Of a stretch of 64,000 bases of DNA, positions 29,794 through 51,360 are shown one piece after another. Under the pieces are notes generated by a model. The model ran no database searches and was not told where the DNA came from. It saw only the letters and a program-made list of their open reading frames with translations. The position numbers were made by a program, and so were the translations under genes. The DNA comes from a virus. Lineage: Duplodnaviria > Caudoviricetes. Every line of letters starts with the position of its first letter. Position 1 is the stretch's first letter. The stretch lies in the IMG/VR virus record IMGVR_UViG_3300032332_000934, positions 32,001-96,000 of that record; one strand, written 5' to 3'.

Positions 29794-30870
29794 TTATTTT
29801 TGTAAAGAGTTTCCATCCATGTATATAACTTCTTCTATATAATAGTCTTCACCATTTATTTGTGACTCTACATAAAAAGGTTCGGGCATAGACCTTTTAT
29901 CAAAATCATTTTTTGCTCCAGGCATAACAACATGCTTTCTTCCTTTTCCAGAAATTGTTTCCGCATGTATTCTTTCGTGTTCCATCTGAATCCATTCATC
30001 TATACCAAATTTTTCTGCAGATGAATTCCAATTTTTGCTACCAGGGTAAGACCAAGTTAAAAAATGTCTAACAAAGTATTTTGGAACATCTGATTTTATT
30101 GGCATGGCTGCATGCTGAAAAGGATTTGAAGATGGAAATATTACTATGTCTCCAGCCTTTGGCTTATAAACAATAACCTTGTCTTCTCCATGTTTTAAGA
30201 ATGCTATTTCTCCACCTTCGTAGTCGTCATTTAAATATATTGTTACTGATAATATTGATTTAGGACCAGGCGCTTCATCTAAACTCTCATTTCTATCTGT
30301 GTGCCATCCTATTGCATACTCTCTATCTGTTGCAGGATCATGCTTTAGCAAGTCATAGGAGCTTGCAGACCAACCGCTAGATGGATTTCTGAAAACTGGA
30401 TCTCCCGTGTCATCACATGTTACAATTTTAAGTCCAACCATGTTGTCAACGCTTTCACCTTTTTCAAGTTCATAAAAGTCTACAAAGTCTGAGTAATCTT
30501 TTTTCCTATCGACACCCTTTTCTAAATTAGAAAAATCAACATACTCTGGCCAAGATCGCTGTCCCTCATCTAAGTATTTAGATATGTAATCTTTTACACA
30601 TTTGTCAATTACTGATTTAACTTTAATGTGTGCATCGGTATAAATATTGTCTAGGTCTTCAGTTACAGAATTTATTTCTTTTCTTGGATCAATAAATTTT
30701 GTTTTTTTACCAAACGTATACCAGTCTTCCCACTCATTAATTAGGTATCCTTCTTTTATGCTTTCTGAAGATTTTACAACTTCAAGTATTTCTTTAGCAT
30801 CAAAGTCTTCAACCTGATAAACAATGCACTGATTAAAAATTTTATAACTATTCAAAATCTTTTCTCCCAT
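29794..30870 (-). CDS. 2OG-Fe(II) oxygenase (P4H-like), tandem paralog 3
   Basis: WHTD..PGPK..TIYLNDDYEGGE..YKPKAGD..FPS..HAA..KY. Confidence 0.88.
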   Translation of the reverse strand: MGEKILNSYKIFNQCIVYQVEDFDAKEILEVVKSSESIKEGYLINEWEDWYTFGKKTKFIDPRKEINSVTEDLDNIYTDAHIKVKSVIDKCVKDYISKYLDEGQRSWPEYVDFSNLEKGVDRKKDYSDFVDFYELEKGESVDNMVGLKIVTCDDTGDPVFRNPSSGWSASSYDLLKHDPATDREYAIGWHTDRNESLDEAPGPKSILSVTIYLNDDYEGGEIAFLKHGEDKVIVYKPKAGDIVIFPSSNPFQHAAMPIKSDVPKYFVRHFLTWSYPGSKNWNSSAEKFGIDEWIQMEHERIHAETISGKGRKHVVMPGAKNDFDKRSMPEPFYVESQINGEDYYIEEVIYMDGNSLQK

Positions 30871-31936
30871 CTATATATTTTAAATTTTCTGCAAAAAACG
30901 GTTGTCTATTTATACTAGATTGTTTTCTATAAATTTTTGACCAATTTTTAAATGTTTCTTGCGGATTATCTCCTGGTAAAAGCACGTGTCTTTCATGCAT
31001 TCCAGAGTTATCTTCAGCTATAATCCTGTACTGCTGCATTTTTTTCCATACATCTTCTCCATACTCCTGAAGACCATCTAAATAATCTTGTGTTCCTTCA
31101 TAATAATAGCACAAAAAGTATCTAATTAAGTATTTTTTTCCACCGCTTACTGGTAGTGCGGCATGAAAAAATGGGTTGTAAGATGGGAATACAGTTATGT
31201 CACCAGCTTTTGGCTTGTATGTTATAACAGAAGAACTTCTGTCGGCAAGGAAGGAAACCTCTCCACCCTCATAATCATCATTTAAATAAATTGTTGCAGT
31301 TAGAATTGGCTTAGGACCTGGCATGGAAACCATACTGGCCTTGTTGTCTGTATGAAATCCAATTGCATACTCACGATTATTTCTAGTATCAGTTTCAGAG
31401 TTGTGACTCAAAACATCGTAGGAGCTTTGAAGCCAACCCGTACCTATCTTGCCAGACCTTTCTCTTATATTCCAGTCTGGTAACCATTCTGGAAAAATTG
31501 ATTGCTTATACTCCCAATCATCATTAAAATAAGATTGATCAAATGGCTTATCTACCCAATGATCTAGGTAATCCTTCATTGCAGAATAAACTGCAGAATC
31601 AATTTCAAAATAAAGCTTTTCTTGCTCATAAAAAATTTTGTCTTCTTCTTCTGACAACATGTTCAAATGCTCAGAGTTTAATGTTATTAAATTTTTTGTT
31701 TCTGAGTGTGGGTAAAGCCTAGACTTTAATCCAAAATCATACCATCTCTCCCATTTACTCAAGTATGGTCCAACTTTTTCAAGTGACTCTGATTTTTTTA
31801 TTACTGAAAGTGCTTGCTCTGGATTTTTAATACCGCCAGAATAAACAGAGATGTAAGGGAAAAGGTCATGTCTTTTTGAAAGGTCATGGTTTTCTTCGTA
31901 CCCAGGAGCAAATTCTGGTTGTCCTTCCCACATCAT
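30848..31936 (-). CDS. 2OG-Fe(II) oxygenase (P4H-like), tandem paralog 2
   Basis: FHTD..PGPK..TIYLNDDYEGGE..YKPKAGD..FPS..HAA..KY. Confidence 0.88.
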   Translation of the reverse strand: MMWEGQPEFAPGYEENHDLSKRHDLFPYISVYSGGIKNPEQALSVIKKSESLEKVGPYLSKWERWYDFGLKSRLYPHSETKNLITLNSEHLNMLSEEEDKIFYEQEKLYFEIDSAVYSAMKDYLDHWVDKPFDQSYFNDDWEYKQSIFPEWLPDWNIRERSGKIGTGWLQSSYDVLSHNSETDTRNNREYAIGFHTDNKASMVSMPGPKPILTATIYLNDDYEGGEVSFLADRSSSVITYKPKAGDITVFPSYNPFFHAALPVSGGKKYLIRYFLCYYYEGTQDYLDGLQEYGEDVWKKMQQYRIIAEDNSGMHERHVLLPGDNPQETFKNWSKIYRKQSSINRQPFFAENLKYIDGRKDFE

Positions 31937-32925
31937 ACATCACCTTCTATTTTTTTATTAAAATCTACTATGTCTTTAACAAAGAAAGGGTCGCCGTGCT
32001 GCTCTTGTGTAGATCTATCTTCATTTTTAAGAAAAACTCTTTTGGTGTAGTATCCCATTGCAGACTCAATCTTTCTTTTTTCAGTATAAAACTTTATTGT
32101 AAAATCTTCTCCGTTTGCTCTGACATCATTTTGCCATTGATCTGATCCAGTGCTCTTCCATCTTAAAAATTTTCTAGCTAAATACTTAGGTGTATCCCCA
32201 CTTAATGGTAGAGCAGCATGAAAGAATGGCTTTGATGATGGGAATATAACAAGGTCGCCAGCGGAGGGCTTATAGTTTACTATAGTTCCATCAAACTCAT
32301 TTAGATAAGAAACTCCACCACCTTCATAGTCATCGTTTATATAAATGGTAGCAGTAAGTACTGTTTTTGGCCCAGGTGTATCAAAGCTTCCGTCTGTGTC
32401 AATATGATATCCTATTGCAAATCTATCCACGGTATTTTCTTTGTGCTTTAAAATATCTATTCCAGATCTTATCCAGCCAGGATTTCCAGTAGCAACCATT
32501 ACTGTTTCGCAAGACTCGAAGTCTTCTTTTAGGTCTACCAAATCTGTTTTGTAGTTCCAATTTTTAACAAACTCTGGGAATATGTTTTTCCAATGTTCTG
32601 GATTTGTTGTCTTATACGCACTAGCATTATCATCTAGAATCCAATATTTTATATACTCATCTAGACCAGCATTAATTAAATTATTAAATTCATCAAGTAC
32701 GTTTTTACCTGGGTGAAGGTCCTTATCTGATTGCATATATATATCATGTAAATTTGCTTTTATTCCAAAATTATCCCATGCGCTCCAAGAATACATGGAG
32801 TCATCGCTATTAATTTGTCCTTCAGAAGATTTAATTATTTCTAAAAAATCTTTAGGGTTTTTAATTGCGTTTTTATATAACGTAACAAAGGGCATTATCT
32901 GGTGCTTTTCATTTAAACTAAACAT
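31933..32925 (-). CDS. 2OG-Fe(II) oxygenase (P4H-like), tandem paralog 1
   Basis: YHID..PGPK..TIYINDDYEGG..YKPSAGD..FPS..HAA..KY. Confidence 0.88.
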   Translation of the reverse strand: MFSLNEKHQIMPFVTLYKNAIKNPKDFLEIIKSSEGQINSDDSMYSWSAWDNFGIKANLHDIYMQSDKDLHPGKNVLDEFNNLINAGLDEYIKYWILDDNASAYKTTNPEHWKNIFPEFVKNWNYKTDLVDLKEDFESCETVMVATGNPGWIRSGIDILKHKENTVDRFAIGYHIDTDGSFDTPGPKTVLTATIYINDDYEGGGVSYLNEFDGTIVNYKPSAGDLVIFPSSKPFFHAALPLSGDTPKYLARKFLRWKSTGSDQWQNDVRANGEDFTIKFYTEKRKIESAMGYYTKRVFLKNEDRSTQEQHGDPFFVKDIVDFNKKIEGDV

Positions 32926-33223
32926 GTTTTTCCTCCCAGAAATCAATCAGCTCTTCCAACACTGACCATTCTATTATACCAAGCCTTACCTTATTATCTG
33001 ATCCTATTATAATTTTAAGTGCTGGGTGCATATCTCTATCAACTTTAAAAGTATCTGTACATATTTTAGCCCACACAAGTTTATTTAAATTAAATGAAGA
33101 TTTAGATTCTTTATAGTCAACAAGAAACATTTTCCATTTAGCGTCACCTTTTTGATAATCACCTCGACCACTATTTTTTTGAGCCTTAGCACCGTCTCTT
33201 TTTACTTCCGATCTTTCCGACAT
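32918..33223 (-). CDS. PD-(D/E)xK endonuclease (Hjc-like resolvase candidate)
   Basis: E......NSG....KGD......DYK. Confidence 0.65.
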   Translation of the reverse strand: MSERSEVKRDGAKAQKNSGRGDYQKGDAKWKMFLVDYKESKSSFNLNKLVWAKICTDTFKVDRDMHPALKIIIGSDNKVRLGIIEWSVLEELIDFWEEKHV

Positions 33224-34409: not shown

Positions 34410-34634
34410 TTAATTAGATATCACTTCAAGGTTAGGATCTGTGTCCTTATCCTCAATCTTAAACTCAAAAGACAATGTCTCATTGTTATAAGTTACTGAT
34501 AGCTGAGCATCCTCGCTATTTGCCGTTAAAAAATCTGCTGTTGGTATCTCAATAGATCCTATTTTGTTTAATATAGCAACTAGAACTCTAGATGAGTTCA
34601 TTGTCTTAAATACATCTTCAGTACTATCTGTCAT
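34410..34634 (-). CDS. hypothetical protein
   Basis: 74 aa ORF, ATGA overlap with dnaE stop. Confidence 0.7.
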   Translation of the reverse strand: MTDSTEDVFKTMNSSRVLVAILNKIGSIEIPTADFLTANSEDAQLSVTYNNETLSFEFKIEDKDTDPNLEVISN

Positions 34635-37600
34635 TTTACTTCCTTAACCATAAGTGTTCCATCTTCTAAAGTTTTTAGAACTGGTTCGCATATCATTCCT
34701 TCTCGCATCTTTGCCAATGAAAGTGGGTACATGCTTGAAAATACAATTGCTCTATTTAAATTTTTATCTTTATCTGACATAACTAAGTGCGCCATAGTTT
34801 TACCAGCTTTTGTTTTATATGGTGTATAGCTTATCACAAACCTCTGATTTTCGTCAATAGGATATGATTGTGCATATAGGTATTTAACAAAAGCATCATC
34901 AGAATCTTTATTAATTAAATCAACCTCTACGTACCTAGATATTCTATTATCGCCAACAAGAACAAAGTACATTTTATTTGTTTCTATTTTTGTTTGCTCG
35001 ACATCAAATAGACCTACAGATCCGCTCTCATCAACAATCTCAATTCTAGACCATCCAGTGCCACGTTTTATAGCCTTAGCCATTCCAAACATAACAAAAG
35101 ATCCCAGCTCTTCAAACTCATCAATCGGTCTAGCTTGCGCTTTAATCTTTGGGTCTAAGTTAGAAAGGTTAAATGAAGGTATTCCTAAAAATTCGTAATA
35201 AGACTCGGCTTCTTTACCGCTTCTAGGGTTATCATCAAAAGCAGCGCCCCCAATAGAGTTAAGAGAAGCAATGGCCCTAGAATTAATGCCACTACCTTTC
35301 TTGGATGCCTTGTCAACAAAGTCTTTGTAGTTTTCATACGGTCTCTTTTCTATAATTTTATTTGCAATGCTGTCTGAAATAAATTTAATCTCTGCCAATC
35401 CGAATCTAATTGAATCTTTTTGTAATGAAAAGTTTACATCGGATTCATTCACATGTGGAAGTTTTACTTTTATACCAAGTCTTTTTGCTTCAATCAAATA
35501 ACCTGTTCTGGCGTCTTTGTCTCCTTCGTTTTTGAGGATCGAGAATAAAAATTCCAAAGGATAATAGCACTTAAGCCAAGCGGTATAATAAGAAAGCATA
35601 GAATAAGCGACAGCGTGACTACGATTGAATGAGTATCCAGCGTGAGCTTCGAATGTTTTCCAGAGGTTGTCTGCTTCTTCTGCGCTGATATGCTTTTTAG
35701 CACCCTGAATAAATTTATCTTTGAATGGACTGAGTTCTTTTGCATCTTGCTTCTTACCAATAACCTTTCTAACTTTGTCAGCCTCTGACCAAGTCATTCC
35801 GCCCAGGTGTACGCATGCTTGCATAACCTGCTCTTGATATATAATAACTCCGTATGTGTTTTCGGTAAAGGGCTTCATGATTGGATGAATATAGTTAACT
35901 GCTTCATTACCGTGCTTGCGTTTAATATAAGATGCGCCAACTGTATTCATTGCGCCAGGTCTAACCAAAGCATTAGATGCAGCCAGGTCTTCAAATTTAT
36001 CAACACGCATTTTTATAAGTAAGTTTGTATACGGTGTTGCTTCTGCTTGAAATATTCCTTTTGTGTACCCATCGTTAAAAATCTTATAAACATTTTCATC
36101 ATCTAAGGCAATGTCATAAAGATTAATATCTTTGCCAGTTCTATTCTTAATTGATTTTAAAGTGTCAGAGATCACAGATAAAGTCTTAAGACCTAGGGCA
36201 TCTAGCTTAATAAGACCTATATCTGCAACCGTGTCCATATCGTATGCCACGACTGGAATTCTTCCAGAGACTTCGTCATTTGCATCAGCTCTGGACTCTA
36301 TTGGTGCATACTTTCTTAAATCATCTTTTGCAACAACCACACCTGCAGCATGCACTCCAACACTTCGAATCTTTCCACGAAGTTTTTCTGCAAGCCAAGT
36401 TACTTCTGGGTACTTTGCTCTAAACTCTTTTGTATTTGGTGAATCAATAAAATCTTCAAATGTGTCAATTGATTTCATTGCACGGTTAACATCTGACAAT
36501 GGAACCATAAATACTCTAGCAGCATCTCTAATTACACCCTTGTCTTTAAAATAAGTAAATGTAGAAATAGATGCAACATGCTTGAACTTCTTCTTTAAAT
36601 AATCTTTAACTTCTTTTCTTCGGCGGTCTTCAAAGTCTGTATCAATATCTGGAAAGTCATTACGTTCTGGATTAATAAATCTAAAGAAAAGCAAATCATA
36701 TTTAATTGGGTCTACATCTGTAATCCCAAGGGCATAGCAAACTAATGAGCCAGCTGCAGAGCCGCGTCCTGGACCAACCATAATATTATTTGACTTAGCC
36801 CATGTAATCATATCTGCTACAACTAGGAAATATGAGGCAAATGCCTTATCTTTAATTATAGATAACTCTTCTGCAATTCTATCTAAGTAGACCTGCTCTT
36901 TGTCTAGAGATAGTCTTTTAAGGCCTTCCAAGGCCATATCAGACAGTTTCTTGTCGGCATTGGTCTTTGGGATAGGTAGCAGATCTAATCCACTATAGAA
37001 GTCATACTCTTGAATCTTATCAGCAATTTCCATTGTATTATCATATATATCTGTACGAGTAATGCCTGATTTATTAAAGTCCGCCTCAATTTCAGACCTT
37101 GATTGGATAAATAGATTATAATCCTGGAATGATATTCTTCGGTCTGGATACAGGTAATTAAATCTATCCATCATATCTGGCATTTGTCTGGACATTTCGA
37201 AGTCTGCATCTTTGTCTGACTTAGGAGATGTTGATAAAATAAGCATTGCTTCTTCTAATACACGGTCTTCTTCTTTAGCAAAATGAGCATCACCTGTTGC
37301 CACCGCTTTAATTTTAAGCTTGTCTGCTAATTCTAAAAGGGCAGAGTTGATCTCCACAGGGTTATGTGATTGCACTTCCACGTAAAAATCTTGTCCGAAA
37401 GTTTGTTTAAAGCCTTCGAGAAGAAGTTCTGCTTCCTCCATGTTACCTTTATCGATAGCCTTACTAATGAGTCCATTAAGACATCCGCTGAGAACGATAA
37501 TACCTTCGCTATAATCATTTAAAACCTCTCTGTCAATTCTTGGCTTGTGATAAAATCCTTCTGTCCAAGCAAGCTCTTGGAGAGTATTAATATTTTCTAA

Positions 37601-37900
37601 TCCCTTTTTGTTTTTAGCAAGCAGGATAATATGGTTGTAGGCTTGGATTGATTTATCAGTCTTAGAAGATCTATCAAATCTATCTGTTGGTGATATGTAT
37701 GCTTCCACACCTAGTATAGGCTTTATTCCTTGTTCTTTGCATGCAATTTGCATATCACGATGTGAAGACAATGTTCCATGGTCAGTAATTGCTAAAGAAG
37801 TTTGTCCAGCATCTTTAGCAGCCTTAACAAGTTCGGCAGGAGAATTAAGCCCATCCATTAATGAATAGAAAGAATGCACATGTAGATGTGTGAAGTTCAA
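34631..37900 (-). CDS. dnaE: DNA polymerase III alpha subunit
   Basis: PHP HLHVHS.YS..DG, TDHG; GRGSAAGSL; PDIDTD; HAAG; YSFNRSHA; TTG start. Confidence 0.97.
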   Translation of the reverse strand: MNFTHLHVHSFYSLMDGLNSPAELVKAAKDAGQTSLAITDHGTLSSHRDMQIACKEQGIKPILGVEAYISPTDRFDRSSKTDKSIQAYNHIILLAKNKKGLENINTLQELAWTEGFYHKPRIDREVLNDYSEGIIVLSGCLNGLISKAIDKGNMEEAELLLEGFKQTFGQDFYVEVQSHNPVEINSALLELADKLKIKAVATGDAHFAKEEDRVLEEAMLILSTSPKSDKDADFEMSRQMPDMMDRFNYLYPDRRISFQDYNLFIQSRSEIEADFNKSGITRTDIYDNTMEIADKIQEYDFYSGLDLLPIPKTNADKKLSDMALEGLKRLSLDKEQVYLDRIAEELSIIKDKAFASYFLVVADMITWAKSNNIMVGPGRGSAAGSLVCYALGITDVDPIKYDLLFFRFINPERNDFPDIDTDFEDRRRKEVKDYLKKKFKHVASISTFTYFKDKGVIRDAARVFMVPLSDVNRAMKSIDTFEDFIDSPNTKEFRAKYPEVTWLAEKLRGKIRSVGVHAAGVVVAKDDLRKYAPIESRADANDEVSGRIPVVAYDMDTVADIGLIKLDALGLKTLSVISDTLKSIKNRTGKDINLYDIALDDENVYKIFNDGYTKGIFQAEATPYTNLLIKMRVDKFEDLAASNALVRPGAMNTVGASYIKRKHGNEAVNYIHPIMKPFTENTYGVIIYQEQVMQACVHLGGMTWSEADKVRKVIGKKQDAKELSPFKDKFIQGAKKHISAEEADNLWKTFEAHAGYSFNRSHAVAYSMLSYYTAWLKCYYPLEFLFSILKNEGDKDARTGYLIEAKRLGIKVKLPHVNESDVNFSLQKDSIRFGLAEIKFISDSIANKIIEKRPYENYKDFVDKASKKGSGINSRAIASLNSIGGAAFDDNPRSGKEAESYYEFLGIPSFNLSNLDPKIKAQARPIDEFEELGSFVMFGMAKAIKRGTGWSRIEIVDESGSVGLFDVEQTKIETNKMYFVLVGDNRISRYVEVDLINKDSDDAFVKYLYAQSYPIDENQRFVISYTPYKTKAGKTMAHLVMSDKDKNLNRAIVFSSMYPLSLAKMREGMICEPVLKTLEDGTLMVKEVK

Positions 37901-43845: not shown

Positions 43846-44070
43846 TTATTCTGATAGAGAAGCTAGTTCTTCGACAAGAGCTGCTATTTTTTTATTAACT
43901 GAAGCTATCTGTGCGTTGACAGCTGCAATTGCATCTGCTGCTGGAGCAGTTGCTGACTCTTCTTCCATTAGGTTTACCTCAAGATTGTACTTAGAGTATC
44001 CAAGCGTTCTCAGGTGAGACTCAACTATAGAGCTTTTTTCTTCATTTGATAGTGTGTATTCTGACATCAT
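43846..44070 (-). CDS. small coiled-coil protein
   Basis: AGGAGG SD and TGGTATAAT promoter upstream. Confidence 0.75.
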   Translation of the reverse strand: MMSEYTLSNEEKSSIVESHLRTLGYSKYNLEVNLMEEESATAPAADAIAAVNAQIASVNKKIAALVEELASLSE

Positions 44071-44093
44071 TACCTCCTATTTATATTATACCA

Positions 44094-44330
44094 TTACCAT
44101 TTACCTACAGGGCAAGTGGCTCCTTTAAGCTTTGTCTTTGCTGGCATAAAACATCCGCATTCCTGGCATGTCTTGACGCCGTTATTAAATTTTGGGCAGG
44201 CTTGGCATAATGAATATCTTGAGATTGCATCTTCTTCTGAGACATATTCTGTATTTGGATTTAAAAAATCCCACGGTTTTACATCATCGGAATTTACAAG
44301 TTTTTTAACCTGCTCCCACTTACTCACCAT
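44094..44330 (-). CDS. Cys-rich small protein (DUF6171-like)
   Basis: R...C..CP......C..CGC.M..K......CP.GKW. Confidence 0.75.
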   Translation of the reverse strand: MVSKWEQVKKLVNSDDVKPWDFLNPNTEYVSEEDAISRYSLCQACPKFNNGVKTCQECGCFMPAKTKLKGATCPVGKW

Positions 44331-44556
44331 CTGTTTGCCTCAATTCAAAAGACACGCCATTCCAAAAATAATTTGCCCCTGCTTTTGGGAAATCTGGTAT
44401 ATCAATATCAACATCTTCCAGATCTACCAATATTGGTGTGCTTGAAAGCCCAGCCCTTAAAAGATCAGTCCCAGGCCCAGCAATATTAAACCATCCTGCG
44501 TATTCGCCATTCACAAGAACCATATATGTGCTTCCTTGCATATCTGATTTATTCAT
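44320..44556 (-). CDS. hypothetical protein (possible fibre chaperone)
   Basis: L.S.P.LVD ... G..YFWNG..F; lies downstream of the fibre-like gene. Confidence 0.6.
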   Translation of the reverse strand: MNKSDMQGSTYMVLVNGEYAGWFNIAGPGTDLLRAGLSSTPILVDLEDVDIDIPDFPKAGANYFWNGVSFELRQTDGE

Positions 44557-44618
44557 AATCTCTCCATAACATTACAGTATTCTATCATTTCTATAAAATT
44601 TTGTCTAGCAACTTATTA

Positions 44619-45197
44619 CTATTTGCCAAAAGATATCACAGAATATTTTGTTCCCTCTAGTACAGGAAGTACTCTATGAATATACTCTATAGATGAAGGG
44701 AAAATAATAAGACTATCCTTAGATGGTTTGATTGGCATAGTATAGGCTTTATTCTTAAATTGAATCTCTCCACCCTCATAATCATCATTTATATAGTACA
44801 CAAAAGATATCTTAGACGGGTGAGGAATTCCGTCATCTGAATGCCATGTAACGCTTTGTCCTTTTTCATACCTAAGAAGCTCCCACGGCTCTCTTTCTTT
44901 AATCTTTATTCCGCTTTTTTTTACAAAGTCTACTAGGCAATCTGAAACTGCTGTATCTATTTTTTTATTCAATATCTTTTTTGCATTATTATAATTAATC
45001 CCATCCTGCTCATTTGCGTATAAAGAAAAAACAGTGCATGATCTTAGGGATAAGTCATAATCCCTATTATTCATTGTTGATTGGCTAAAATCTTTTTTGT
45101 ACAGATTAAATATACTATATACTTCTTTAAGGATATCTAAATCTGAGCCAATCACATCTTTATAAATCAATATGTTGTTTCCTAAGTCTTGTATCAT
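44619..45197 (-). CDS. 2OG-Fe(II) oxygenase (P4H-like)
   Basis: LLRY..G....WHSD...ISFVYYINDDYEGGE.F..FPS..Y.HRV.PV..GTKY; TAATG-coupled to the fibre gene. Confidence 0.92.
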   Translation of the reverse strand: MIQDLGNNILIYKDVIGSDLDILKEVYSIFNLYKKDFSQSTMNNRDYDLSLRSCTVFSLYANEQDGINYNNAKKILNKKIDTAVSDCLVDFVKKSGIKIKEREPWELLRYEKGQSVTWHSDDGIPHPSKISFVYYINDDYEGGEIQFKNKAYTMPIKPSKDSLIIFPSSIEYIHRVLPVLEGTKYSVISFGK

Positions 45198-48100
45198 TAG
45201 TCTGGTATCTGCTTATCTGAATAATTGTGAGCCATTATACCTTCGGCAAAGTATATGTCCTTACTTTCAATATTAATAGAAACTGTGTCCACTTCCTCAT
45301 TAATTAAAATTTTTGAATAGATTTCCACTATTTGGAGATCTTCGTTCATTATCTTGTTACCTAACTCAAGATCCCTGATGGATACAAATTTCCAAACCCC
45401 GTCTTTTTGTGCTGGAACCATATGCTCATAAGTTATTTTAATTGTATCATTAATAATATAGTATTGTCCATAAGATCTTATAACAACATTTGTAACTACA
45501 GCAGTAGTTTTTGTTGTTTCAGATATGTCATCCGATGACCATAGGTGCATATTAGTTATATCAAACTCGTTATCCTGAAGTCCTGGGATTTCAGCAGCCA
45601 TGACCTCATCTCCAATATAAAGATCTTCTATGTTTTTCCAGGTTCCGTCTGACATTTGAATTTGTGTTCCTACTACGTGGCAGCCTCCGCCTCCGCCAGT
45701 ATTGACCGTATTTACAGTGTTAACAGTGTTAACATTATTGACAGTATTTACAGTATTGACGGTATTCACATTGTTTACAGTATTTACGTTGTTTACAGTA
45801 TTGACTGTATTTACAGTATTAACTGTGTTAATAGTATTAATTGTATTAATAGTATTAATTGTATTGATAGTATTAATTGTATTAATTGAATTACATGCTC
45901 GATATTCAAATTCATAACCATTTACTTCTCTAGTAGATAGTGTTGCACAGCTTGAATTTATACATGTTTCAATTGCTGTATAGGAACGTGATCTTGCTTC
46001 TTCTCCCTGATAGCATGAACCCCAAGCTGTCCAGGCTCCATATGATTTTGTTCCTACAGTACAGCCTGCGGTGCAGCAAGCAATGTACTCATATTCTGTT
46101 CCATTGACTTCTGTTGTAGTGCTGTTACAACTAGTATCAATATTAGTTTGTATTGCAGTCCAACTTCTTGATCTAGCACGTTCACCTTGGATACAGGATC
46201 CGTAGGCTGTCCATGCACCATAAGTTTTAGTGCCAGTTGTACTACTTGCCGTGCAGCAGCCAGTGTACTCAAAATCTGTACCGCTAACTGTTTCAGTTGT
46301 ATTAGTACAACTTGTTGTAAAGCATGATTGTGTAGCAGTCCAACTCCTCGATCTAGCACGTTCGCCCTGAATACAGCTACCAAATGCAGTCCATGCGCCA
46401 TAGGTTTTTGCTCCAGTTGTACAGGACTGAACACAGCATGCTGTATATTCATATTCAGTTCCACTAACTTCACTTGCAGAAACTAAATTGCAACTAGTGT
46501 CTATACATGTATTTATTGCCGTCCAAGATCTTGATCTTGCACGTTCTCCCTGAATACAGGATCCATAGCCTGTCCAGGCTCCGTATGATTTTGCACCTAG
46601 CGTACAACCTGCAGTGCAACATGAGGTATATTCATACTCTGTGCCATTTACCTCTTTAGTTGTTGTTGTGCAGTTAATTGTATTGCTTGTTTCAATAGCA
46701 GTCCATGAGCGTGATCTAGCACGTTCACCTTGGATACAAGAACCAAATGCTGTCCAAGCTCCGTAAGTTTTGATTCCAATTGATGTACTTGCAGAGCAAC
46801 AATTTTTATACTCAGTATCGTAACCAGTTGTTGTAACATATATAGTTGTGCAGTCCCTTGTTGTTTGTGTATCAGTTGCTGTCCATGGAATAGTTCTTCC
46901 AATTTGTCCAGTATTTAAATTACATGTCCCCCAAGCATTTGGAGTTCCATAAGTTTTAGGTCCAAGTGAGGAGGTGGGGACACAACAATTTACTTGCTCT
47001 GTTTCGCTTCCAGATAACTCAACAGTAGTTATTACACAATTTTTAGAAGTTGTTTTTTGATTTTGAGTCCATGTTCTTGTTCTATTTCTTTGTGGGTCTG
47101 CTGGATATGCTGTACACAGTCCGTATGTCCAATCTGAATAAACTTTAGGTTCTAAAACAACTAATGGGCAACATAGATTATCAATTTGAGAACATTCTAT
47201 TGCATAATAAGATCCATTTATAGTTTTATCATATGTTTCTGTAGATTTGGAGCAAAGGCCACCAGTAACTGTTGATAAACAATACCAAGTTCCTCCAATA
47301 ATTATACATACTGCACTTGATGTTACATAATCATATGAAACTGCAGTTAAATTTATATTATCTATTTTAGAAGTTATTGCCGTTAAGCATGAATTAGCTC
47401 CAGCAGTTACTCCTGTTACGGTTATCACATCTAAAGACCGAGTTGCCGTTCCGCTTGTTGCAGAAACTGTTATATCAAACGTGCTTACTGTACTCCAATT
47501 GGTTATATTAACTTTATAACCAGATGAAGTTATATCATATGGCGCTCCTAAAGTTGCAGCAATTCCATTTGAAAGTGTTCTAAAGCTCTTGGATATCTTA
47601 TCGCTTTTATACTTATCATCTTGTCCAGCCAGCGCCGTTACTGAGACAGTATATAATCTATTTTCGCTTAAACCATAGGGACTAGATGAAGTAGTTGATG
47701 TTGAATTTAGCGGGTAACCTCCCAAAGAGTTTGCTGTAATAGAATCAATTAACTCAACCTTATACCTTTCAGCATTTGTTGAATACCAAGATATATCTGC
47801 GGAGCTTTTTGTTCTATTTGATATGGTTATTGTTGGATTTTCTATTTTTCTTGGCGGGGTAAATACATAAGATGCAACTCTTTGAGTTTCAGACATATCC
47901 AATAAATGTCCATCCAGCGATAACCCGCTATTATAATAATAATCATTTGCAATGGCATAAACATTAATAATATAATCTTCTCCAGAATCAAGCATTGCTT
48001 GTGTATAAGTAATTGATGCTGAATATTGATGTGTTGTTGATAAAGATATACTTTGCAGATCCCCAATTCTGGTTCCATAAAAATCAGTAAGTTCAACTAT

Positions 48101-48877
48101 TTGCTTTCCAATAAATTCATTTGTCCGAGAAGATGGGAAATATTGACCAGTTGGATAAGTTGATAATGCAGATGTAAGATATTGCCATTTAAGTCCAAAT
48201 ATTTTATTATCTTTATTACTTAATGTTTCATCTTCAACTATTTGATCGCCTGTGCTATATGTATAAAATTCAAAGTTAAGTTTTGGAAATATACCTGTAG
48301 CACTTGGGTACCATGTTGTTGCCAACAAGTAATCTGCCTCAGTTGGGTTTGCATCTATAGCTGCTTGAACCTGTGCCCTAAATCCTCTTTTGCTTTTAAT
48401 GTCATCGAGTGTTATTACTGGTCTATTTGCAGGTAGCTTAGGAACCTCATCTAAATAATCTGAATCCTGATAGGTTGTATACTGGAGCTCTTCACTAATT
48501 AATGTTGTTGGAGCATCCCAATTTGTAATTATAGACTTTTGTATTTTAATTAAAAATGATAGCGGATCTTCATACCACTTACCTCTTGTAACATACATTT
48601 TATCTTGCTGACTACATTCATATTTTGATTCGATTGAGCTTGTAGATACAAAAATTAATTGTGGATTTATTTTTGGATAAGGAAAAGCTGCGCCAAAAAT
48701 TCTTTCCCATATTCCGCTTGGGTTAAGTCGCCACATGCTTTTAATTTTAATCCAGCCGCCAACTGCGCCGCTAGTTTGTGTTGGTGAAGCTTTTCTCCAG
48801 ATGCTTTTCATTTTAATCCAGCCGCCAACATTATGAGCGCCAGTATCTCCTGGTGAAGCTTTTCTCCAAACAGACAT
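45197..48877 (-). CDS. tail fibre/receptor-binding-like protein with FN3, thrombospondin-like Cys repeats, (I/V)NT repeats and C-terminal Hint domain
   Basis: Duplicated WRKASP..VGGWIK.KS N-terminus; FN3-like W..Y.V..GL....Y.VSVTA; 7 Cys repeats; GGGGG-C..GT.I.M.DG..K.IEDL..GD.V ... GIMAHN. Confidence 0.8.
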   Translation of the reverse strand: MSVWRKASPGDTGAHNVGGWIKMKSIWRKASPTQTSGAVGGWIKIKSMWRLNPSGIWERIFGAAFPYPKINPQLIFVSTSSIESKYECSQQDKMYVTRGKWYEDPLSFLIKIQKSIITNWDAPTTLISEELQYTTYQDSDYLDEVPKLPANRPVITLDDIKSKRGFRAQVQAAIDANPTEADYLLATTWYPSATGIFPKLNFEFYTYSTGDQIVEDETLSNKDNKIFGLKWQYLTSALSTYPTGQYFPSSRTNEFIGKQIVELTDFYGTRIGDLQSISLSTTHQYSASITYTQAMLDSGEDYIINVYAIANDYYYNSGLSLDGHLLDMSETQRVASYVFTPPRKIENPTITISNRTKSSADISWYSTNAERYKVELIDSITANSLGGYPLNSTSTTSSSPYGLSENRLYTVSVTALAGQDDKYKSDKISKSFRTLSNGIAATLGAPYDITSSGYKVNITNWSTVSTFDITVSATSGTATRSLDVITVTGVTAGANSCLTAITSKIDNINLTAVSYDYVTSSAVCIIIGGTWYCLSTVTGGLCSKSTETYDKTINGSYYAIECSQIDNLCCPLVVLEPKVYSDWTYGLCTAYPADPQRNRTRTWTQNQKTTSKNCVITTVELSGSETEQVNCCVPTSSLGPKTYGTPNAWGTCNLNTGQIGRTIPWTATDTQTTRDCTTIYVTTTGYDTEYKNCCSASTSIGIKTYGAWTAFGSCIQGERARSRSWTAIETSNTINCTTTTKEVNGTEYEYTSCCTAGCTLGAKSYGAWTGYGSCIQGERARSRSWTAINTCIDTSCNLVSASEVSGTEYEYTACCVQSCTTGAKTYGAWTAFGSCIQGERARSRSWTATQSCFTTSCTNTTETVSGTDFEYTGCCTASSTTGTKTYGAWTAYGSCIQGERARSRSWTAIQTNIDTSCNSTTTEVNGTEYEYIACCTAGCTVGTKSYGAWTAWGSCYQGEEARSRSYTAIETCINSSCATLSTREVNGYEFEYRACNSINTINTINTINTINTINTINTVNTVNTVNTVNNVNTVNNVNTVNTVNTVNNVNTVNTVNTVNTGGGGGCHVVGTQIQMSDGTWKNIEDLYIGDEVMAAEIPGLQDNEFDITNMHLWSSDDISETTKTTAVVTNVVIRSYGQYYIINDTIKITYEHMVPAQKDGVWKFVSIRDLELGNKIMNEDLQIVEIYSKILINEEVDTVSINIESKDIYFAEGIMAHNYSDKQIPD
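45698..45886. repeat. 21 x 9-bp coding tandem repeat, (I/V)-N-(T/N)
   Basis: Counted from DNA: 7 INT followed by 14 VN(T/N); synonymous positions vary. Confidence 0.92.
45893..47150. repeat. seven ~180-bp coding repeats (TSP1-like Cys-rich units)
   Basis: K[TS]YGAWT..GSC.QGE.ARSRS[WY]TA...C...G.E.EY..CC; five close and two divergent copies. Confidence 0.9.
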
Positions 48878-51360
48878 TATGCTTTCCTACTTAAATAAAT
48901 ATCTCCGCCTAAAGCATAGGAATCTAAAAAATCAAGTTGCGATGCAAGTCTGTCTTGTGGGTGATAATTTCCACCATAATAAAAAACTCTTCCACCATTT
49001 AAATATCCAGTGGATCTTGAAACAGTCACAGTCTGATCTCCCCAAACGCTATCTCCATCGGTTGGTAGTCTACTACCAGGGGATACCAATTGCAAGCCAC
49101 CAGTTACTGCATTTGCACCAATAAGGTTAATATTAAATGTTGATCCGTCAAATGTAAGTTTGCCATCTGCAAGGCTAAAGCTTCCATATGGCTTTGTTGT
49201 ATTGCCAATTGTTGTGCTTTTACCTAACAAGTAATCATTTGAAAAGCTTTTGCCTGATCCTAAAAATACATTGGATGCAATTAAATCTGTTTTAACTTTA
49301 AAATCAGTTCCATCGTATGTTAAATCTCCATTAGCTAGCCTGAAGTTTCCAGATGAAGATATATAATCAACATTACCTGGATTTCCGCTTCCTTCTCCAG
49401 GATAGGCTGTTGTCCAATCAGATGGGCTCATAAAATAATGATTTGAGCCAACAATGTTTCCGCCTATTATTGAGCCTTGTAAGCCATCTAGTGTGACTTG
49501 TGATGTTAAATTTGTAGATACTATTTTTGCAGAATCAATTGTCCATCCATCTGAAACCTTATATCCAGTTGCAGTAGTTGCATCTGATACAAGTATTCCA
49601 AAGCCACCTTCTCCAGCTTGAACCATTCCTTTAAGAACGGCGTCCTTGGCAATCATCTTTCCTGCGTATGTAACTGAGAAATTAGGACTTACTGTTCTAG
49701 ATCCTCCAGCCCAAATTGCAACATCTGAGGGAGTTGTTGTGGCAAAGAAACCTACGTTGCCAGCCTTGTTAATTGATGTATCGTCAATTGTCCATCCCGC
49801 TATTGTTCCTTTATTAGCAATAATTCCATTTACTGTATCTAACTGAAATAGTTTTCCAACTGAGTCCGTACCCTGGATTCCAACACCAATTTTTGCTCCA
49901 GCAGTATTAGTTAGTTTTCCTATTTCAAATTTTCCAGAAGATGTTGTGACTCTGAGTTGTCCGTCTACTAGTGCTGTTCCTATGTCAACAGATCCAGTAA
50001 ATGCTCCAGCGTTAGCATTTATTTTTCCAGTTATTTCTAAATTAGTTCCATTCCAATAAAGCCAATCGCTAACTCCGCCAACTTTAAATCTAGCTGCAGA
50101 AGAAACGCTTGTGTTTCCAGTAACATACCAATAATTTTCTGGCGCTATATACAGACCTTTATTTGAGTTGTCTCCACCAATTCCATATCCAAGCTTCATG
50201 TCTCCTGCAGATATTGCAACATCTGTCTTTAATGATGTGTTGGATGGAATTACTATGTTTGGATATTGTTTATATACAGAGTTATCGTTCCCATAAACAT
50301 CATATGTTGTTACGGCTATTTGATAAGTTTGACCAGCTTTTAATCCATACAAATATGTTGATACTGTAGCTCTTCCTGGAACAGACATGTATGTGTAATT
50401 AGAATCAGAAGCAGTCTTGTATCTTATTCTGTACCCAGAGGTTGAAGTATCTGTATTTTGCGTCCAGGTAAATAAAATCTTTTTGTCAAAGTTAAAGAGT
50501 CCGTTAGAGTCATCTTCAACGGTTGTAGATCCTAAATCAAAATTATTTTCTGGTGGTAGATCGTCAAAAACAATAGGGTCATAAGCTTTACCCTCTTTAA
50601 TGTCTGAGTTTAGAGATTCGCATTCAGAATAGGATAGGTGATTAAGCTTTACATAAACCGTAGCTAATGTATCTAATATTATTGACGCTGGGCCAATTCC
50701 TGTATATCTAAGCTCCCAATTATAAGGACTAGGTGTTTCTGAAACATATACCCTGGTTTCTCTATAAGTTCCGTATCCAGTTGCGCTATCCTGCCAAGAA
50801 ACAAGTATGCCGTTGCTTTGGCTAACAACATTCCATGAGGCTGCTAGTGTTGTATGAGAACATACTGGGTCTACATATTCTGCAACTGTTACTGGACATT
50901 CATCTGAGCTTCCATCTCCATAAACGCTTTGGATAGAAAAAGATGTAAATGATTTTCTAAACACTCCTCCAAATTGAAATATGTTGTTTTCTCTTGTTAA
51001 TACCCACGAGTAGTTTAAAGAAGATCCAGAAGCTGAAACAAGGTGGGACCTTCTGTACCCACCAGCTGTAAGAGTAATTACATAATTTTTTACACGATTA
51101 TCATTTTTTTGCCAGCTTACATTTAATCCAGCTTTTGCATCCCATGAAGCAACAACATTTATTGGGCATACTCTTGATGGGCCAACCGTTCTGAAATTAA
51201 ATCTATCTGAGAATTCGCTAGAACCTAATGACTTGTCACTGTATATCCAAGCAACCTGAAGTGCGTAATCAGTATCACAGTCTAAATCTGGGATTACGAC
51301 ATCCCAGTAATCACCATCTTGTTTTTGTGTGATACCTAGATCTGGATACTGTTCAGACAT
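48877..51360 (-). CDS. minor tail protein with fibronectin-III-like domains
   Basis: W.....SGYRIRYK...LYGLKAGQTYQIAV..YD.YGN FN3; G.IAGWTI fibre-like repeats. Confidence 0.8.
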   Translation of the reverse strand: MSEQYPDLGITQKQDGDYWDVVIPDLDCDTDYALQVAWIYSDKSLGSSEFSDRFNFRTVGPSRVCPINVVASWDAKAGLNVSWQKNDNRVKNYVITLTAGGYRRSHLVSASGSSLNYSWVLTRENNIFQFGGVFRKSFTSFSIQSVYGDGSSDECPVTVAEYVDPVCSHTTLAASWNVVSQSNGILVSWQDSATGYGTYRETRVYVSETPSPYNWELRYTGIGPASIILDTLATVYVKLNHLSYSECESLNSDIKEGKAYDPIVFDDLPPENNFDLGSTTVEDDSNGLFNFDKKILFTWTQNTDTSTSGYRIRYKTASDSNYTYMSVPGRATVSTYLYGLKAGQTYQIAVTTYDVYGNDNSVYKQYPNIVIPSNTSLKTDVAISAGDMKLGYGIGGDNSNKGLYIAPENYWYVTGNTSVSSAARFKVGGVSDWLYWNGTNLEITGKINANAGAFTGSVDIGTALVDGQLRVTTSSGKFEIGKLTNTAGAKIGVGIQGTDSVGKLFQLDTVNGIIANKGTIAGWTIDDTSINKAGNVGFFATTTPSDVAIWAGGSRTVSPNFSVTYAGKMIAKDAVLKGMVQAGEGGFGILVSDATTATGYKVSDGWTIDSAKIVSTNLTSQVTLDGLQGSIIGGNIVGSNHYFMSPSDWTTAYPGEGSGNPGNVDYISSSGNFRLANGDLTYDGTDFKVKTDLIASNVFLGSGKSFSNDYLLGKSTTIGNTTKPYGSFSLADGKLTFDGSTFNINLIGANAVTGGLQLVSPGSRLPTDGDSVWGDQTVTVSRSTGYLNGGRVFYYGGNYHPQDRLASQLDFLDSYALGGDIYLSRKA

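What the first reader, a model, noticed from the sequence alone, without database searches (positions are those of the whole stretch)
44094..45886. Fibre C-terminus: (I/V)NT x21 - Gly5 - Hint domain, coupled to a hydroxylase
Seen: a 63-aa Asn repeat with synonymous variation (consistent with protein-level selection), GGGGG|C at the Hint N-terminus, and HN followed by Tyr and 7 more residues. Next come a TAATG-coupled 2OG oxygenase and two small genes. Known: Hint domains lacking a +1 Cys/Ser/Thr cleave rather than splice, and Hedgehog Hint transfers the N-terminal protein to a nucleophile. Inference: an autoprocessing system that exposes the repeat as the mature fibre tip or ligates it to a small molecule or partner, with the neighbouring oxygenase modifying the repeat.
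Basis: partly seen in the sequence, partly recalled or inferred. Interest (0 to 1): 0.8.

Follow-up and report, generated by a model that had tools for sequence, protein, structure and literature searches.

The report
Self-excising Hint cap on phage fibre
A freshwater phage makes a tail-fibre-like protein that ends in a 21-unit tripeptide repeat, five glycines and an intein-like (Hint) domain; the Hint domain almost certainly cuts itself off, a conserved lysine in its short tail may resolve that reaction, and the overlapping hydroxylase gene travels with this repeat type in related phages.

Summary
It lies on the minus strand. A 1226-aa fibre-like protein ends in 21 (I/V)N(T/N) units, then Gly5, then Cys1 of a 153-aa Hint domain, then His-Asn and an 8-residue tail (YSDKQIPD). 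Its TAA stop overlaps the ATG of a 2OG oxygenase gene.

The Hint domain is real. It is closest to bacterial intein-like (BIL) domains, and all catalytic residues are conserved. At least 1,557 protein clusters share it, almost always at the extreme C-terminus without a +1 Cys/Ser/Thr.

- The short tail holds a lysine in 130 of 132 relatives, against about 50% in control C-termini. The closest solved relative (Tetrahymena BIL2) splices through a lysine isopeptide. Lys-resolved self-excision is therefore my favoured mechanism, but it is untested.
- Thr at every third residue is the invariant of the repeat, not Asn.

All 18 distinct relatives with this repeat type have the oxygenase adjacent. A syntenic sister phage with a different repeat carries a GlcNAc-transferase in that slot. 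These amount to only 2–3 independent evolutionary events. The enzyme also looks like a prolyl hydroxylase, yet the repeat has no proline, and the genome holds 14 such oxygenases.

This scan has found the same kind of cassette on at least five other genomes. I rate it a new variant of a known kind.

The parts
45197..48877 (-). Tail-fibre-like precursor protein, 1226 aa (P0001). It is the last large gene of the tail module.
   Evidence: ORF. Upstream genes on the same strand match PHROG tail families: phrog_10359 minor tail protein (2e-83) and phrog_9983 tail protein (2e-46). P0001 itself matches no PHROG family and gives only a weak fn3 hit. 'Fibre' is therefore inferred from position and architecture.
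45698..45886 (-). Tripeptide repeat, 21 units (7 INT, 11 VNT, 3 VNN), residues 998-1060. It would lie just before the Gly5 at the mature C-terminus after Hint excision.
   Evidence: In 16 relatives (376 units) position 3 is Thr in 371, position 1 is Ile/Val in 361, and position 2 is N 278 / D 54 / A 44. Copy number ranges from 6 to 41.
45683..45697 (-). Gly5 linker, residues 1061-1065. Gly1065 is the -1 residue of the scissile Gly|Cys bond.
   Evidence: In the family Gly is at -1 in 73 of 113 junctions, with Gly runs of up to 11.
45224..45682 (-). BIL-type Hint domain, Cys1066 to Asn1218 (153 aa). Catalytic set: Cys1066, Thr1149-x-x-His1152, Asp1207, His1217-Asn1218.
   Evidence: The family profile hits BIL2 of Tetrahymena (6tmm/6y75, 4e-14) and the C. 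thermocellum BIL (2lwy, 1e-12). The AF2 model has pLDDT 90.5, and the Foldseek top hits are the same BILs. Pfam Hint models score only below threshold.
45200..45223 (-). Post-Asn tail YSDKQIPD (residues 1219-1226) with Lys1222 (45212..45214). Lys1222 is the candidate nucleophile or acceptor.
   Evidence: Lys occurs in the tail of 130 of 132 relatives and in every viral-locus tail. Control C-termini show 47-53%. Arg occurs in only 15%.
44619..45197 (-). 2OG/Fe(II) oxygenase, 192 aa (P0002), PHD/P4H-like. Its start overlaps the fibre stop (TAATG). His119-x-Asp121, His174 and Lys184 are present.
   Evidence: Pfam PF13640 1.5e-14; phrog_61 4.5e-24; alignment. The AF2 model has pLDDT 93.5. Foldseek top hits are PHD2, Dictyostelium PHD, algal P4H and Pseudomonas P4H.
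44320..44556 (-). Small protein P0003, 78 aa, with no family match and a WNGxxF motif near its C-terminus.
   Evidence: Conserved only in the closest clade (L001, L005, L010, L013, L015), so it is not a core part of the cassette.
44094..44330 (-). Small Cys-rich protein P0004, 78 aa (DUF6171 / phrog_13558).
   Evidence: Found downstream of the oxygenase(s) in more relatives (also L022, L023, L027, L030). Role unknown.

Best explanation
The fibre-like protein is made as a precursor with a disposable C-terminal BIL-type Hint domain.

Proposed steps:
1. After folding, Cys1066 attacks the carbonyl of Gly1065 (N-to-S acyl shift), giving a thioester.
2. Asn1218 cyclises and cuts the domain from its 8-residue tail.
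3. The thioester is resolved, most likely by the epsilon-amine of the tail lysine (Lys1222), otherwise by water.

The Hint domain is thereby released. The mature fibre ends in the X-X-Thr tract plus Gly5, possibly capped by an isopeptide-linked octapeptide. The overlapping PHD/P4H-like oxygenase probably modifies this precursor, with the repeat as the best candidate substrate.

Shown here:
- the Hint fold, the catalytic residues and the absence of a +1 nucleophile;
- the family-wide C-terminal position;
- the near-invariant tail Lys;
- the conserved adjacency of the oxygenase.

Inferred: every chemical step, the role of the Lys, the enzyme's substrate and the virion location.

My odds: self-excision at Gly|Cys about 0.8; Lys as the resolving nucleophile about 0.45; the oxygenase acting on this protein about 0.5.
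For: Hint identity:
- The profile of 41 relatives hits BIL2 (6tmm/6y75) at 4e-14 and the C. thermocellum BIL (2lwy) at 1e-12.
- The AF2 model has pLDDT 90.5, and Foldseek ranks the same BILs first, ahead of mini-inteins and Hedgehog.
- Cys1, TxxH, Asp and HN are invariant or nearly so.

Family:
- 1,557 representative clusters at E<=1e-3.
- The tail after HN is 25 residues or fewer in 132 of the 140 members where an HN motif was found (median 7).
- The +1 residue is never Cys and rarely Ser or Thr.
- Gly is at -1 in 65% of junctions.

Lysine:
- 130 of 132 tails hold at least one Lys. No other residue exceeds 47%, and Arg is at 15%.
- Re-dealing the tail residues gives at most 93 of 132.
- Control C-termini of the same phages show 47-53%.
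- In cellular relatives, where the domain is mostly internal, Lys is at +1 or +2 in 57% of 89 flanks. Twelve of the 21 Lys-less flanks have Ser, Thr or Cys at +1, one more has Cys at +2, and several others hold a Cys further in.
- BIL2 forms a K(epsilon-NH2)-C-terminus isopeptide (PMC8616854, section 2.4).

Oxygenase:
- The genes overlap as TAATG.
- An orthologue is directly downstream in all 18 distinct INT-type relatives and in 3 of 23 others.
- In syntenic sister phages, L031/L037/L040 have the INT repeat plus two oxygenases. L026 has an FSVFSFAPT repeat plus a PF11397 GlcNAc-transferase (7.6e-19) at the same slot. L028/L029 have that repeat and no enzyme.
- A second cassette in the same genome has a repeat-tailed FN3 protein followed by five oxygenases.
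Against: - No experiment bears on any step.
- Pfam Hint models score below threshold on the single sequence.
- The tail is modelled with low confidence (pLDDT 54), so the reach of Lys1222 to the active site is not shown.
- The position of the Lys varies from +1 to +13.
- Type A BILs are proposed to splice through the alpha-amine without any Lys (PMC4031507).
- Charged tails are common at protein C-termini.
- The oxygenase resembles prolyl hydroxylases, but the tract has no Pro.
- The genome has 14 oxygenase-like ORFs, so adjacency is less surprising.
- On the Hint tree the oxygenase state changes only about 3 times, with 2 supported independent pairs and a non-significant sign test.
- One relative with a Pro/Phe repeat (L020) has no oxygenase within 4 kb.
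Confidence: 0.6

Rival explanations
1. Plain hydrolytic self-cleavage. The Hint domain acts only as a removable folding or assembly aid, as the S74 intramolecular chaperone domains of other fibres do. Water resolves the thioester. The tail lysine serves solubility, Asn cyclisation or something unrelated.
For: - Cleavage products dominate for type A BILs (PMC4031507).
- Some relatives carry the Hint domain directly in front of an S74-chaperone-like C-terminal segment (L036 and L074; P0020 and P0045). This places the Hint domain where removable fibre chaperones sit.
- The position of the Lys is variable.
Against: - Hydrolysis needs neither the conserved His-Asn nor any tail, yet both are kept in nearly all members.
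- At least one Lys per tail occurs in 98.5% of members, Arg does not substitute, and Lys alternates with Ser/Thr/Cys in cellular relatives.
Confidence: 0.3
2. Ligation in trans. The Gly1065 thioester is captured by an amine of another virion protein, of a neighbouring fibre chain's tail or of the host cell wall, or by a small molecule as in Hedgehog. The fibre tip becomes covalently attached.
For: - BIL2 conjugates its N-terminal flank to several substrates (PMC8616854).
- Hedgehog transfers its N-terminal domain to cholesterol (established knowledge).
- The Gly run resembles the flexible Gly-Gly end of ubiquitin-like proteins.
Against: - There is no sterol-recognition-like region; only 8 residues follow Asn.
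- A nucleophile built into the tail of almost every member points to a reaction in cis.
- A thioester formed in the producing cell would not survive until the next host is met (inference).
Confidence: 0.1
3. The oxygenase has nothing to do with the fibre. It is one of many phage oxygenase genes that happens to sit there and is inherited together with the fibre gene.
For: - There are 14 oxygenase-like ORFs in a 115-kb genome.
- There are few independent changes on the tree.
- The fold is prolyl-hydroxylase-like but the tract has no proline.
Against: - The one-base gene overlap and the direct adjacency hold across fibres of 528 to about 1500 aa with unrelated N-terminal parts.
- The enzyme is replaced by a protein glycosyltransferase, or lost, exactly where the repeat type changes in otherwise syntenic phages.
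- There is a second repeat-plus-oxygenase cassette in the same genome.
- Collagen-like and poly-Pro relatives also have oxygenases nearby (L036, L043, L057).
Confidence: 0.35
4. The Hint domain is an inactive relic kept as a structural or receptor-binding end domain of the fibre.
For: Single-sequence Pfam scores are below threshold. Hint folds can be reused as binding modules (for example the AXH match).
Against: Every catalytic position is conserved through relatives down to about 25% identity. The junction is Gly|Cys and the end is His-Asn throughout.
Confidence: 0.05

Closest known systems
BIL2 domain of the Tetrahymena thermophila BUBL1 polyubiquitin-like locus (PDB 6TMM, 6Y75; Chiarini et al. 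2021, as described in PMC8616854)
   Same: It is the best sequence-profile hit and the best fold hit. It shares the Cys1, the block B His and the terminal His-Asn, a Gly-Gly type N-terminal flank, and splicing resolved by a lysine epsilon-amine that gives an isopeptide.
   Different: There, both flanks are ubiquitin-like domains and the lysine lies in a folded domain. Here the N-terminal flank is a phage fibre with a peptide repeat and the C-terminal flank is a 1-21-residue tail. Identity is about 22%. The lysine chemistry is untested here.
Type A bacterial intein-like (BIL) domains (Amitai 2003; Dassa 2004; C. thermocellum BIL structure 2LWY, Aranko 2013; summarised in PMC4031507)
   Same: Small Hint domain without an endonuclease, Cys1, C-terminal His-Asn and no +1 nucleophile. 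They cause N- and C-terminal cleavage with some splicing, and occur in variable surface or secreted proteins.
   Different: The described mechanism uses the alpha-amine of the released C-terminal flank. I found no description of a conserved tail Lys, of a position at the very end of phage fibre proteins behind peptide repeats, or of linked modifying enzymes in the papers I could search.
Hedgehog/Hog autoprocessing domains
   Same: Gly|Cys(Phe/His) junction, a thioester at the end of the N-terminal domain, and release of that domain with a modified C-terminus.
   Different: Hedgehog has a sterol-recognition region after the Hint core and no terminal Asn cyclisation. It is a weaker fold match here (rank 27).
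Peptidase S74 intramolecular chaperone domains at the C-terminus of phage tail fibres and spikes (endosialidase K1F, T5 pb1)
   Same: A C-terminal domain of a phage fibre that removes itself after assembly. In some relatives both modules occur in tandem (L036, L074).
   Different: The fold and chemistry are unrelated (Ser-Lys dyad protease). P0001 gives no match to this family.
Protein prolyl 4-hydroxylases of the PHD/P4H clade, and the Skp1 pathway of Dictyostelium (PhyA hydroxylase followed by the Gnt1 GlcNAc-transferase, Pfam PF11397)
   Same: The P0002 model matches PHD2, the Dictyostelium PHD, algal P4H and Pseudomonas P4H best. The PF11397 transferase family occupies the same genomic slot in sister phage L026. 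A look-alike that was not scanned follows the three oxygenases in L019.
   Different: The neighbouring repeat has no proline. The own genome has no PF11397 gene. The substrate is unknown.

Membership tests
HINT superfamily, type A BIL-like domain | Hint (horseshoe beta) fold | tested here: met
   AF2 model with pLDDT 90.5 and pTM 0.84. Foldseek hits to BIL2, the C. thermocellum BIL, mini-inteins and Hedgehog at E 1e-9 to 1e-5.
HINT superfamily, type A BIL-like domain | N-terminal Cys/Ser nucleophile and block B Thr-x-x-His | tested here: met
   Cys1066 and Thr1149-x-x-His1152. His is invariant and Thr is in at least 90% of 41 relatives.
HINT superfamily, type A BIL-like domain | C-terminal His-Asn with no Cys/Ser/Thr at +1 | tested here: met
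   His1217-Asn1218-Tyr1219. In the family +1 is A/V/K/I/F and others, Ser 8, Thr 4, Cys 0 of about 140.
HINT superfamily, type A BIL-like domain | Significant sequence similarity to known BIL domains | tested here: met
   Profile A1 against the PDB: 6tmm/6y75 at 4e-14, 2lwy at 1.3e-12. The single sequence reaches only 0.04, and Pfam Hint models score below their cut-offs.
HINT superfamily, type A BIL-like domain | Autocatalytic cleavage or splicing of the flanks | not testable with these tools
   Needs expression and mass spectrometry.
Canonical intein | Cys/Ser/Thr at +1, and insertion inside a conserved host protein whose two halves are rejoined | tested here: not met
   +1 is Tyr. Only 8 residues follow. 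There is no homing endonuclease (the domain is 153 aa).
Hedgehog/Hog autoprocessing domain | Sterol-recognition (adduct-recruiting) region after the Hint core | tested here: not met
   The protein ends 8 residues after Asn1218.
BUBL-type lysine-isopeptide splicing | Lysine in the C-terminal flank acting as nucleophile; Gly at -1 | tested here: inconclusive
   The sequence side is met: Gly5 at -1, Lys1222, and Lys in 130 of 132 tails. The chemical role is untested. Ubiquitin-like flanks are absent.
Pfam PF13640 (2OG-FeII_Oxy_3), PHD/P4H-like protein hydroxylases | Score above the curated cut-off, the HxD...H iron triad and a basic 2OG-binding residue | tested here: met
   55.2 bits against a cut-off of 27. 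His119-x-Asp121, His174 and Lys184 are conserved.
Pfam PF13640 (2OG-FeII_Oxy_3), PHD/P4H-like protein hydroxylases | Double-stranded beta-helix fold closest to prolyl hydroxylases | tested here: met
   Model pLDDT 93.5. Top hits are PHD2, 6t8m, 3gze and 4iw3 at E around 1e-11 to 1e-9.
Pfam PF13640 (2OG-FeII_Oxy_3), PHD/P4H-like protein hydroxylases | Proline-containing peptide substrate | tested here: not met
   The 63-residue tract and Gly5 hold no Pro. The only nearby Pro is in the tail. The substrate residue is unknown.
Peptidase S74 intramolecular chaperone | Match to the S74 C-terminal domain | tested here: not met
   No such Pfam or PHROG match for P0001.

The most novel reading that the evidence does not exclude
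A very large clade of Hint/BIL domains uses a lysine epsilon-amine in place of the +1 Cys/Ser/Thr. The clade includes the phage fibre ends and relatives inside giant surface proteins of CPR bacteria, DPANN archaea and others. This would make lysine-isopeptide 'branch splicing' a widespread natural chemistry rather than a Tetrahymena oddity. Phages would use it to finish fibre tips whose X-X-Thr or aromatic/Pro repeats have first been tailored by dedicated hydroxylases and glycosyltransferases. That would give the many orphan phage 2OG oxygenases a substrate.
Probability: 0.3. Interest if true: 0.85.

Novelty: new variant of a known kind. Interest (0 to 1): 0.7.

Why it matters
- Phage receptor-binding fibres are usually thought to mature only by folding, chaperones or S74-type self-cleavage. 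A Hint-based end-processing module in more than 1,500 protein clusters would be a second, widespread maturation route.
- The near-invariant tail lysine gives a sharp, cheap test (one point mutant plus mass spectrometry) of whether lysine-directed protein splicing is common in nature.
- Phage genomes from aquatic samples are full of 2OG oxygenases without a known substrate. The repeat-enzyme pairing offers a defined candidate substrate.
- Self-cleaving, self-capping Hint modules that tolerate arbitrary upstream repeats could also be useful protein-engineering tools.

Tried and rejected
- DNA-level search of the phage collection with 44000-49000 found nothing.
- The first locus search with the 41-sequence alignment failed because it had no conserved stretch. 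A 10-sequence alignment worked.
- The search for homologous proteins on the Hint region, restricted to fibre-sized proteins, gave only 2 hits and no useful names.
- Read laying on four metagenome runs: contigs break in or near the repeat. One 472-nt contig from a second sample of the same study is identical across it. No repeat-length variant was seen, so nothing can be said about copy-number polymorphism.
- N-glycosylation sequon idea rejected: N-T-I and N-N-V are not N-x-S/T (read directly from the sequence).
- Pfam gives no TSP_1 match for the Cys-rich modules, so that resemblance stays untested.
- P0003 against the 134-aa WDGxxF protein of the second cassette gave only a 19-residue blastp match at E 0.026, not enough to call homology.
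- Literature searches for Hint or intein-like domains on phage tail fibres returned only terminase inteins and polymorphic-toxin Hint domains. The library is limited, so this is weak evidence of novelty.
- PF11397 in the own genome: no match. The control genomes also gave none, so absence is only weakly shown.


Full report
**1. What is there**

The finding lies on the minus strand. ORF 45197..48877 encodes a 1226-aa protein, P0001. Its C-terminus is laid out as follows:

| Element | Residues | Window coordinates |
|---|---|---|
| 21 tripeptide units (7 INT, 11 VNT, 3 VNN), preceded by Cys-Asn-Ser | 998-1060 | 45698..45886 |
| Gly5 | 1061-1065 | 45683..45697 |
| Cys1 of the Hint domain | 1066 | 45680..45682 |
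| His-Asn at the end of the 153-residue domain | 1217-1218 | 45224..45229 |
| Tail YSDKQIPD | 1219-1226 | 45200..45223 |

- Neighbouring repeat units differ by 32 synonymous and 7 non-synonymous codon changes. Tandem Repeats Finder reports period 9, 21 copies and 76% matches. The tract is therefore conserved as protein.
- The TAA stop shares its last A (base 45197) with the ATG of a 192-aa gene, P0002. P0002 passes Pfam 2OG-FeII_Oxy_3 (55.2 bits, cut-off 27).
- Two 78-aa genes follow. P0003 matches no family. P0004 matches DUF6171 and phrog_13558.

**2. Context**

- The window belongs to a 114,966-bp virus record with direct terminal repeats, rated complete, at 36% G+C.
- P0001 is the last large gene of a tail module. 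That module holds a 2720-aa protein, a phrog_10359 minor tail protein, a phrog_9983 tail protein and an 831-aa protein.
- P0001 itself has no PHROG match, so 'fibre' rests on position and architecture.
- The DnaE-like polymerase is 57% identical to those of large Streptomyces siphophages.
- Related fibres carry PASTA domains.
- The stretch occurs in freshwater and river metagenomes.
- A Gram-positive, perhaps actinobacterial, freshwater host is a reasonable guess and no more.

**3. The Hint domain is real and BIL-like**

- Pfam Hint models score only below threshold on the single sequence.
- A whole-library phmmer search found 1,557 representative clusters at E<=1e-3 and 399 at E<=1e-10.
- A profile of 41 relatives hits the BIL2 domain of the Tetrahymena BUBL1 locus (6tmm/6y75, 4e-14) and the Clostridium thermocellum BIL (2lwy, 1.3e-12). 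Inteins score lower.
- The AlphaFold model is confident (pLDDT 90.5). Foldseek ranks the same two BILs first, then mini-inteins, with Hedgehog at rank 27.
- Cys1, Thr-x-x-His, a block F Asp and His-Asn are invariant or nearly so.

**4. Family architecture**

- In the 150 best representatives the domain is nearly always at the very C-terminus.
- The tail after His-Asn is 25 residues or fewer in 132 of the 140 members where an HN motif was found (median 7).
- The +1 residue is never Cys and seldom Ser or Thr.
- Gly is at -1 in 73 of 113 junctions, often as a run.
- The 50 residues before the junction are of low complexity (entropy below 3.0) in 13 of 92 members. About 1% of proteins reach that level on the average of their control windows. 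A repeat is therefore frequent but not obligatory.
- A cultured example is gp108 of Dickeya phage AD1, annotated as a virion structural protein. It has collagen-like repeats, then ...SG|C...AHN, then a 10-residue tail with three Lys.

**5.

- 130 of 132 short tails contain at least one Lys.
- The next most frequent residue (Glu) is present in 47% of tails, and Arg in only 15%.
- Re-dealing all tail residues among the tails gives on average 80 and at most 93 tails with a Lys.
- C-termini of other ORFs of these phages hold a Lys in their last seven residues in 47-53% of cases.
- All tails of the viral loci have one.
- Relatives in cellular genomes were then examined: CPR bacteria, Elusimicrobia, DPANN and Thermoplasmatales archaea, Gammaproteobacteria and Streptomyces. 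There the domain is mostly internal.
  - Lys is at +1 or +2 in 57% of 89 distinct C-terminal flanks.
  - Of the 21 flanks without Lys, 12 have Ser, Thr or Cys at +1, one more has Cys at +2, and several others hold a Cys further in.
- Lys and the classical nucleophiles thus look interchangeable.
- Type A BILs in general are thought to cleave mostly, and to splice through the alpha-amine of the released flank (PMC4031507).
- I therefore favour self-excision in which the Gly1065-Cys1066 thioester is resolved by Lys1222 and Asn1218 cyclisation frees the domain. Plain hydrolysis is the main rival. None of this chemistry has been tested.

**6. The repeat**

- I tallied 376 units from 16 distinct relatives, collected with the pattern [IVQ][NDA][TSN].
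  - Position 3 is Thr in 371.
  - Position 1 is Ile or Val in 361.
  - Position 2 is Asn 278, Asp 54, Ala 44.
- Copy number runs from 6 to 41.
- The constant feature is Thr at every third residue next to a beta-branched residue, not Asn. The window's three VNN units are unusual.
- What structure the tract adopts is unknown.

**7. The oxygenase link**

- An HMM built from the adjacent enzymes finds an orthologue starting within about 150 bases of the Hint gene's end in 21 of 41 distinct loci. That covers all 18 with the (I/V/Q)(N/D/A)T repeat and three others, with GGSTNS, NPYSNPPPY and FGFTP repeats.
- The fibres concerned range from 528 to about 1500 aa and have unrelated N-terminal parts.
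- The most telling case is a set of otherwise syntenic phages.
  - L031, L037 and L040 have the INT repeat followed by two oxygenases.
  - L026 has an FSVFSFAPT repeat followed by a PF11397 GlcNAc-transferase (7.6e-19).
  - L028 and L029 have that repeat and no enzyme.
- L019 has 41 QNT/IAT units followed by three oxygenases. A 330-aa protein comes next. It resembles the L026 transferase but was not scanned against Pfam.
- More distant Hint proteins are followed by other enzymes:
  - GT7 glycosyltransferases;
  - a methyltransferase plus B12 radical-SAM enzymes;
  - an oxygenase plus a GT1 enzyme, after a collagen-like repeat.
- The same genome holds a second cassette outside the window. An FN3 protein ends in eight Pro/Phe decamers, has no Hint domain, and is followed by five oxygenases.

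Cautions:
- The genome has 14 oxygenase-like ORFs.
- On the Hint tree the oxygenase state changes about three times. Only two well-supported independent pairs exist, so the sign test is not significant.
- L020 has a Pro/Phe repeat and no oxygenase within 4 kb.
- P0002 is catalytically intact (HxD, H, K). Its model matches protein prolyl hydroxylases best: PHD2, Dictyostelium PHD, algal P4H and Pseudomonas P4H. The tract has no proline, so the modified residue, if any, is unknown.

**8. Verdict**

Self-processing and the linkage with a modifying enzyme stand as well-founded inferences. 'Cleaves rather than splices' should be replaced by 'probably excises itself, perhaps by lysine-directed splicing'. 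The emphasis on Asn should be dropped.
- The domain is a member of a known kind (type A BIL-like Hint).
- I did not find the following described in the papers I could search:
  - its use as a C-terminal cap of phage fibre proteins behind peptide repeats;
  - the near-invariant tail lysine;
  - the co-varying enzymes.
- The same kind of cassette has been noted by this scan on at least five other genomes. Those notes agree with this reading but are not independent evidence.

Noticed in passing
window 45893-47176 (-), residues ~570-995 of P0001: About seven ~60-aa Cys-rich modules with a W..(F/Y/W)GSC..GE.ARSRSW core and paired CC. They are reminiscent of thrombospondin type-1 repeats, but Pfam gives no TSP_1 match even at E<=1.
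   Followed up: partly
own genome, outside the window: G000 112898-113821 (-) and 107983-112246 (-): Second cassette. A 307-aa FN3 protein ends in eight Pro/Phe decamers (SPPFFPPGFF) and has no Hint domain. It is followed by a 134-aa protein with two WDGxxF motifs, an oxygenase, a 213-aa gene and four more oxygenases.
   Followed up: partly
whole genome G000; in the window e.g. 399-1709, 4202-4900, 25521-26117, 29797-32946: There are 14 ORFs matching the P4H-like oxygenase HMM in a 115-kb phage genome, several of them in tandem arrays.
   Followed up: no
L036 686-4819; L074 560-4816; P0020; P0045: Here the Hint domain is not terminal. It is followed by a ~125-aa segment that looks like the S74 intramolecular chaperone of tail fibres (...SDERLK...). 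That gives two self-removing modules in tandem. In L036 the upstream part is collagen-like, and an oxygenase and a GT1 enzyme follow.
   Followed up: no
P0013 (8 matched stretches), L105 (12 Hint matches), P0015, P0124, P0128, P0133, P0150: Proteins made of tandem arrays of this Hint domain, joined by short linkers such as HN-K-G(n)-C.
   Followed up: no
L076, L078-L084, L086, L092, L099-L102, L109, L127 (cellular genomes): In CPR bacteria and uncultured Gammaproteobacteria the same Hint clade is inserted inside ~1800-aa proteins, with a conserved HN-(D/E/Q)-K-G-G flank. One related protein (P0157) carries alpha-2-macroglobulin Pfam domains.
   Followed up: no
L055 3974-8467, L057 611-4153, L059 3935-8416: Reversed layout. 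A Hint-like domain starts about 10 residues after the start codon (MSVKNG...) and is followed by more than 1000 residues of collagen-like Gly-X-Y repeats. In L057 an oxygenase lies 33 bases downstream.
   Followed up: no
L044, L049, L051, L053, L054 downstream of the Hint genes: Hint-terminated proteins without repeats are followed by a Methyltransf_24 gene and B12-binding radical-SAM genes. L044, L051 and L053 each hold two Hint-terminated proteins about 1 kb apart.
   Followed up: partly
window 48700-48877 (-), first ~60 residues of P0001: The N-terminus holds three copies of a short W-(R/I)-K...GGWIK-(M/I)-K-S-(I/M)-WR motif. L002 and L003 fibres start with analogous short repeats although the rest differs. 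This is possibly the shared attachment module.
   Followed up: no
window 34631-37900 (-): The DnaE-like DNA polymerase III alpha is 57% identical to those of Streptomyces phages (BillNye, Circinus, Wakanda). This hints at an actinobacterial host lineage for a 36% G+C freshwater phage.
   Followed up: no
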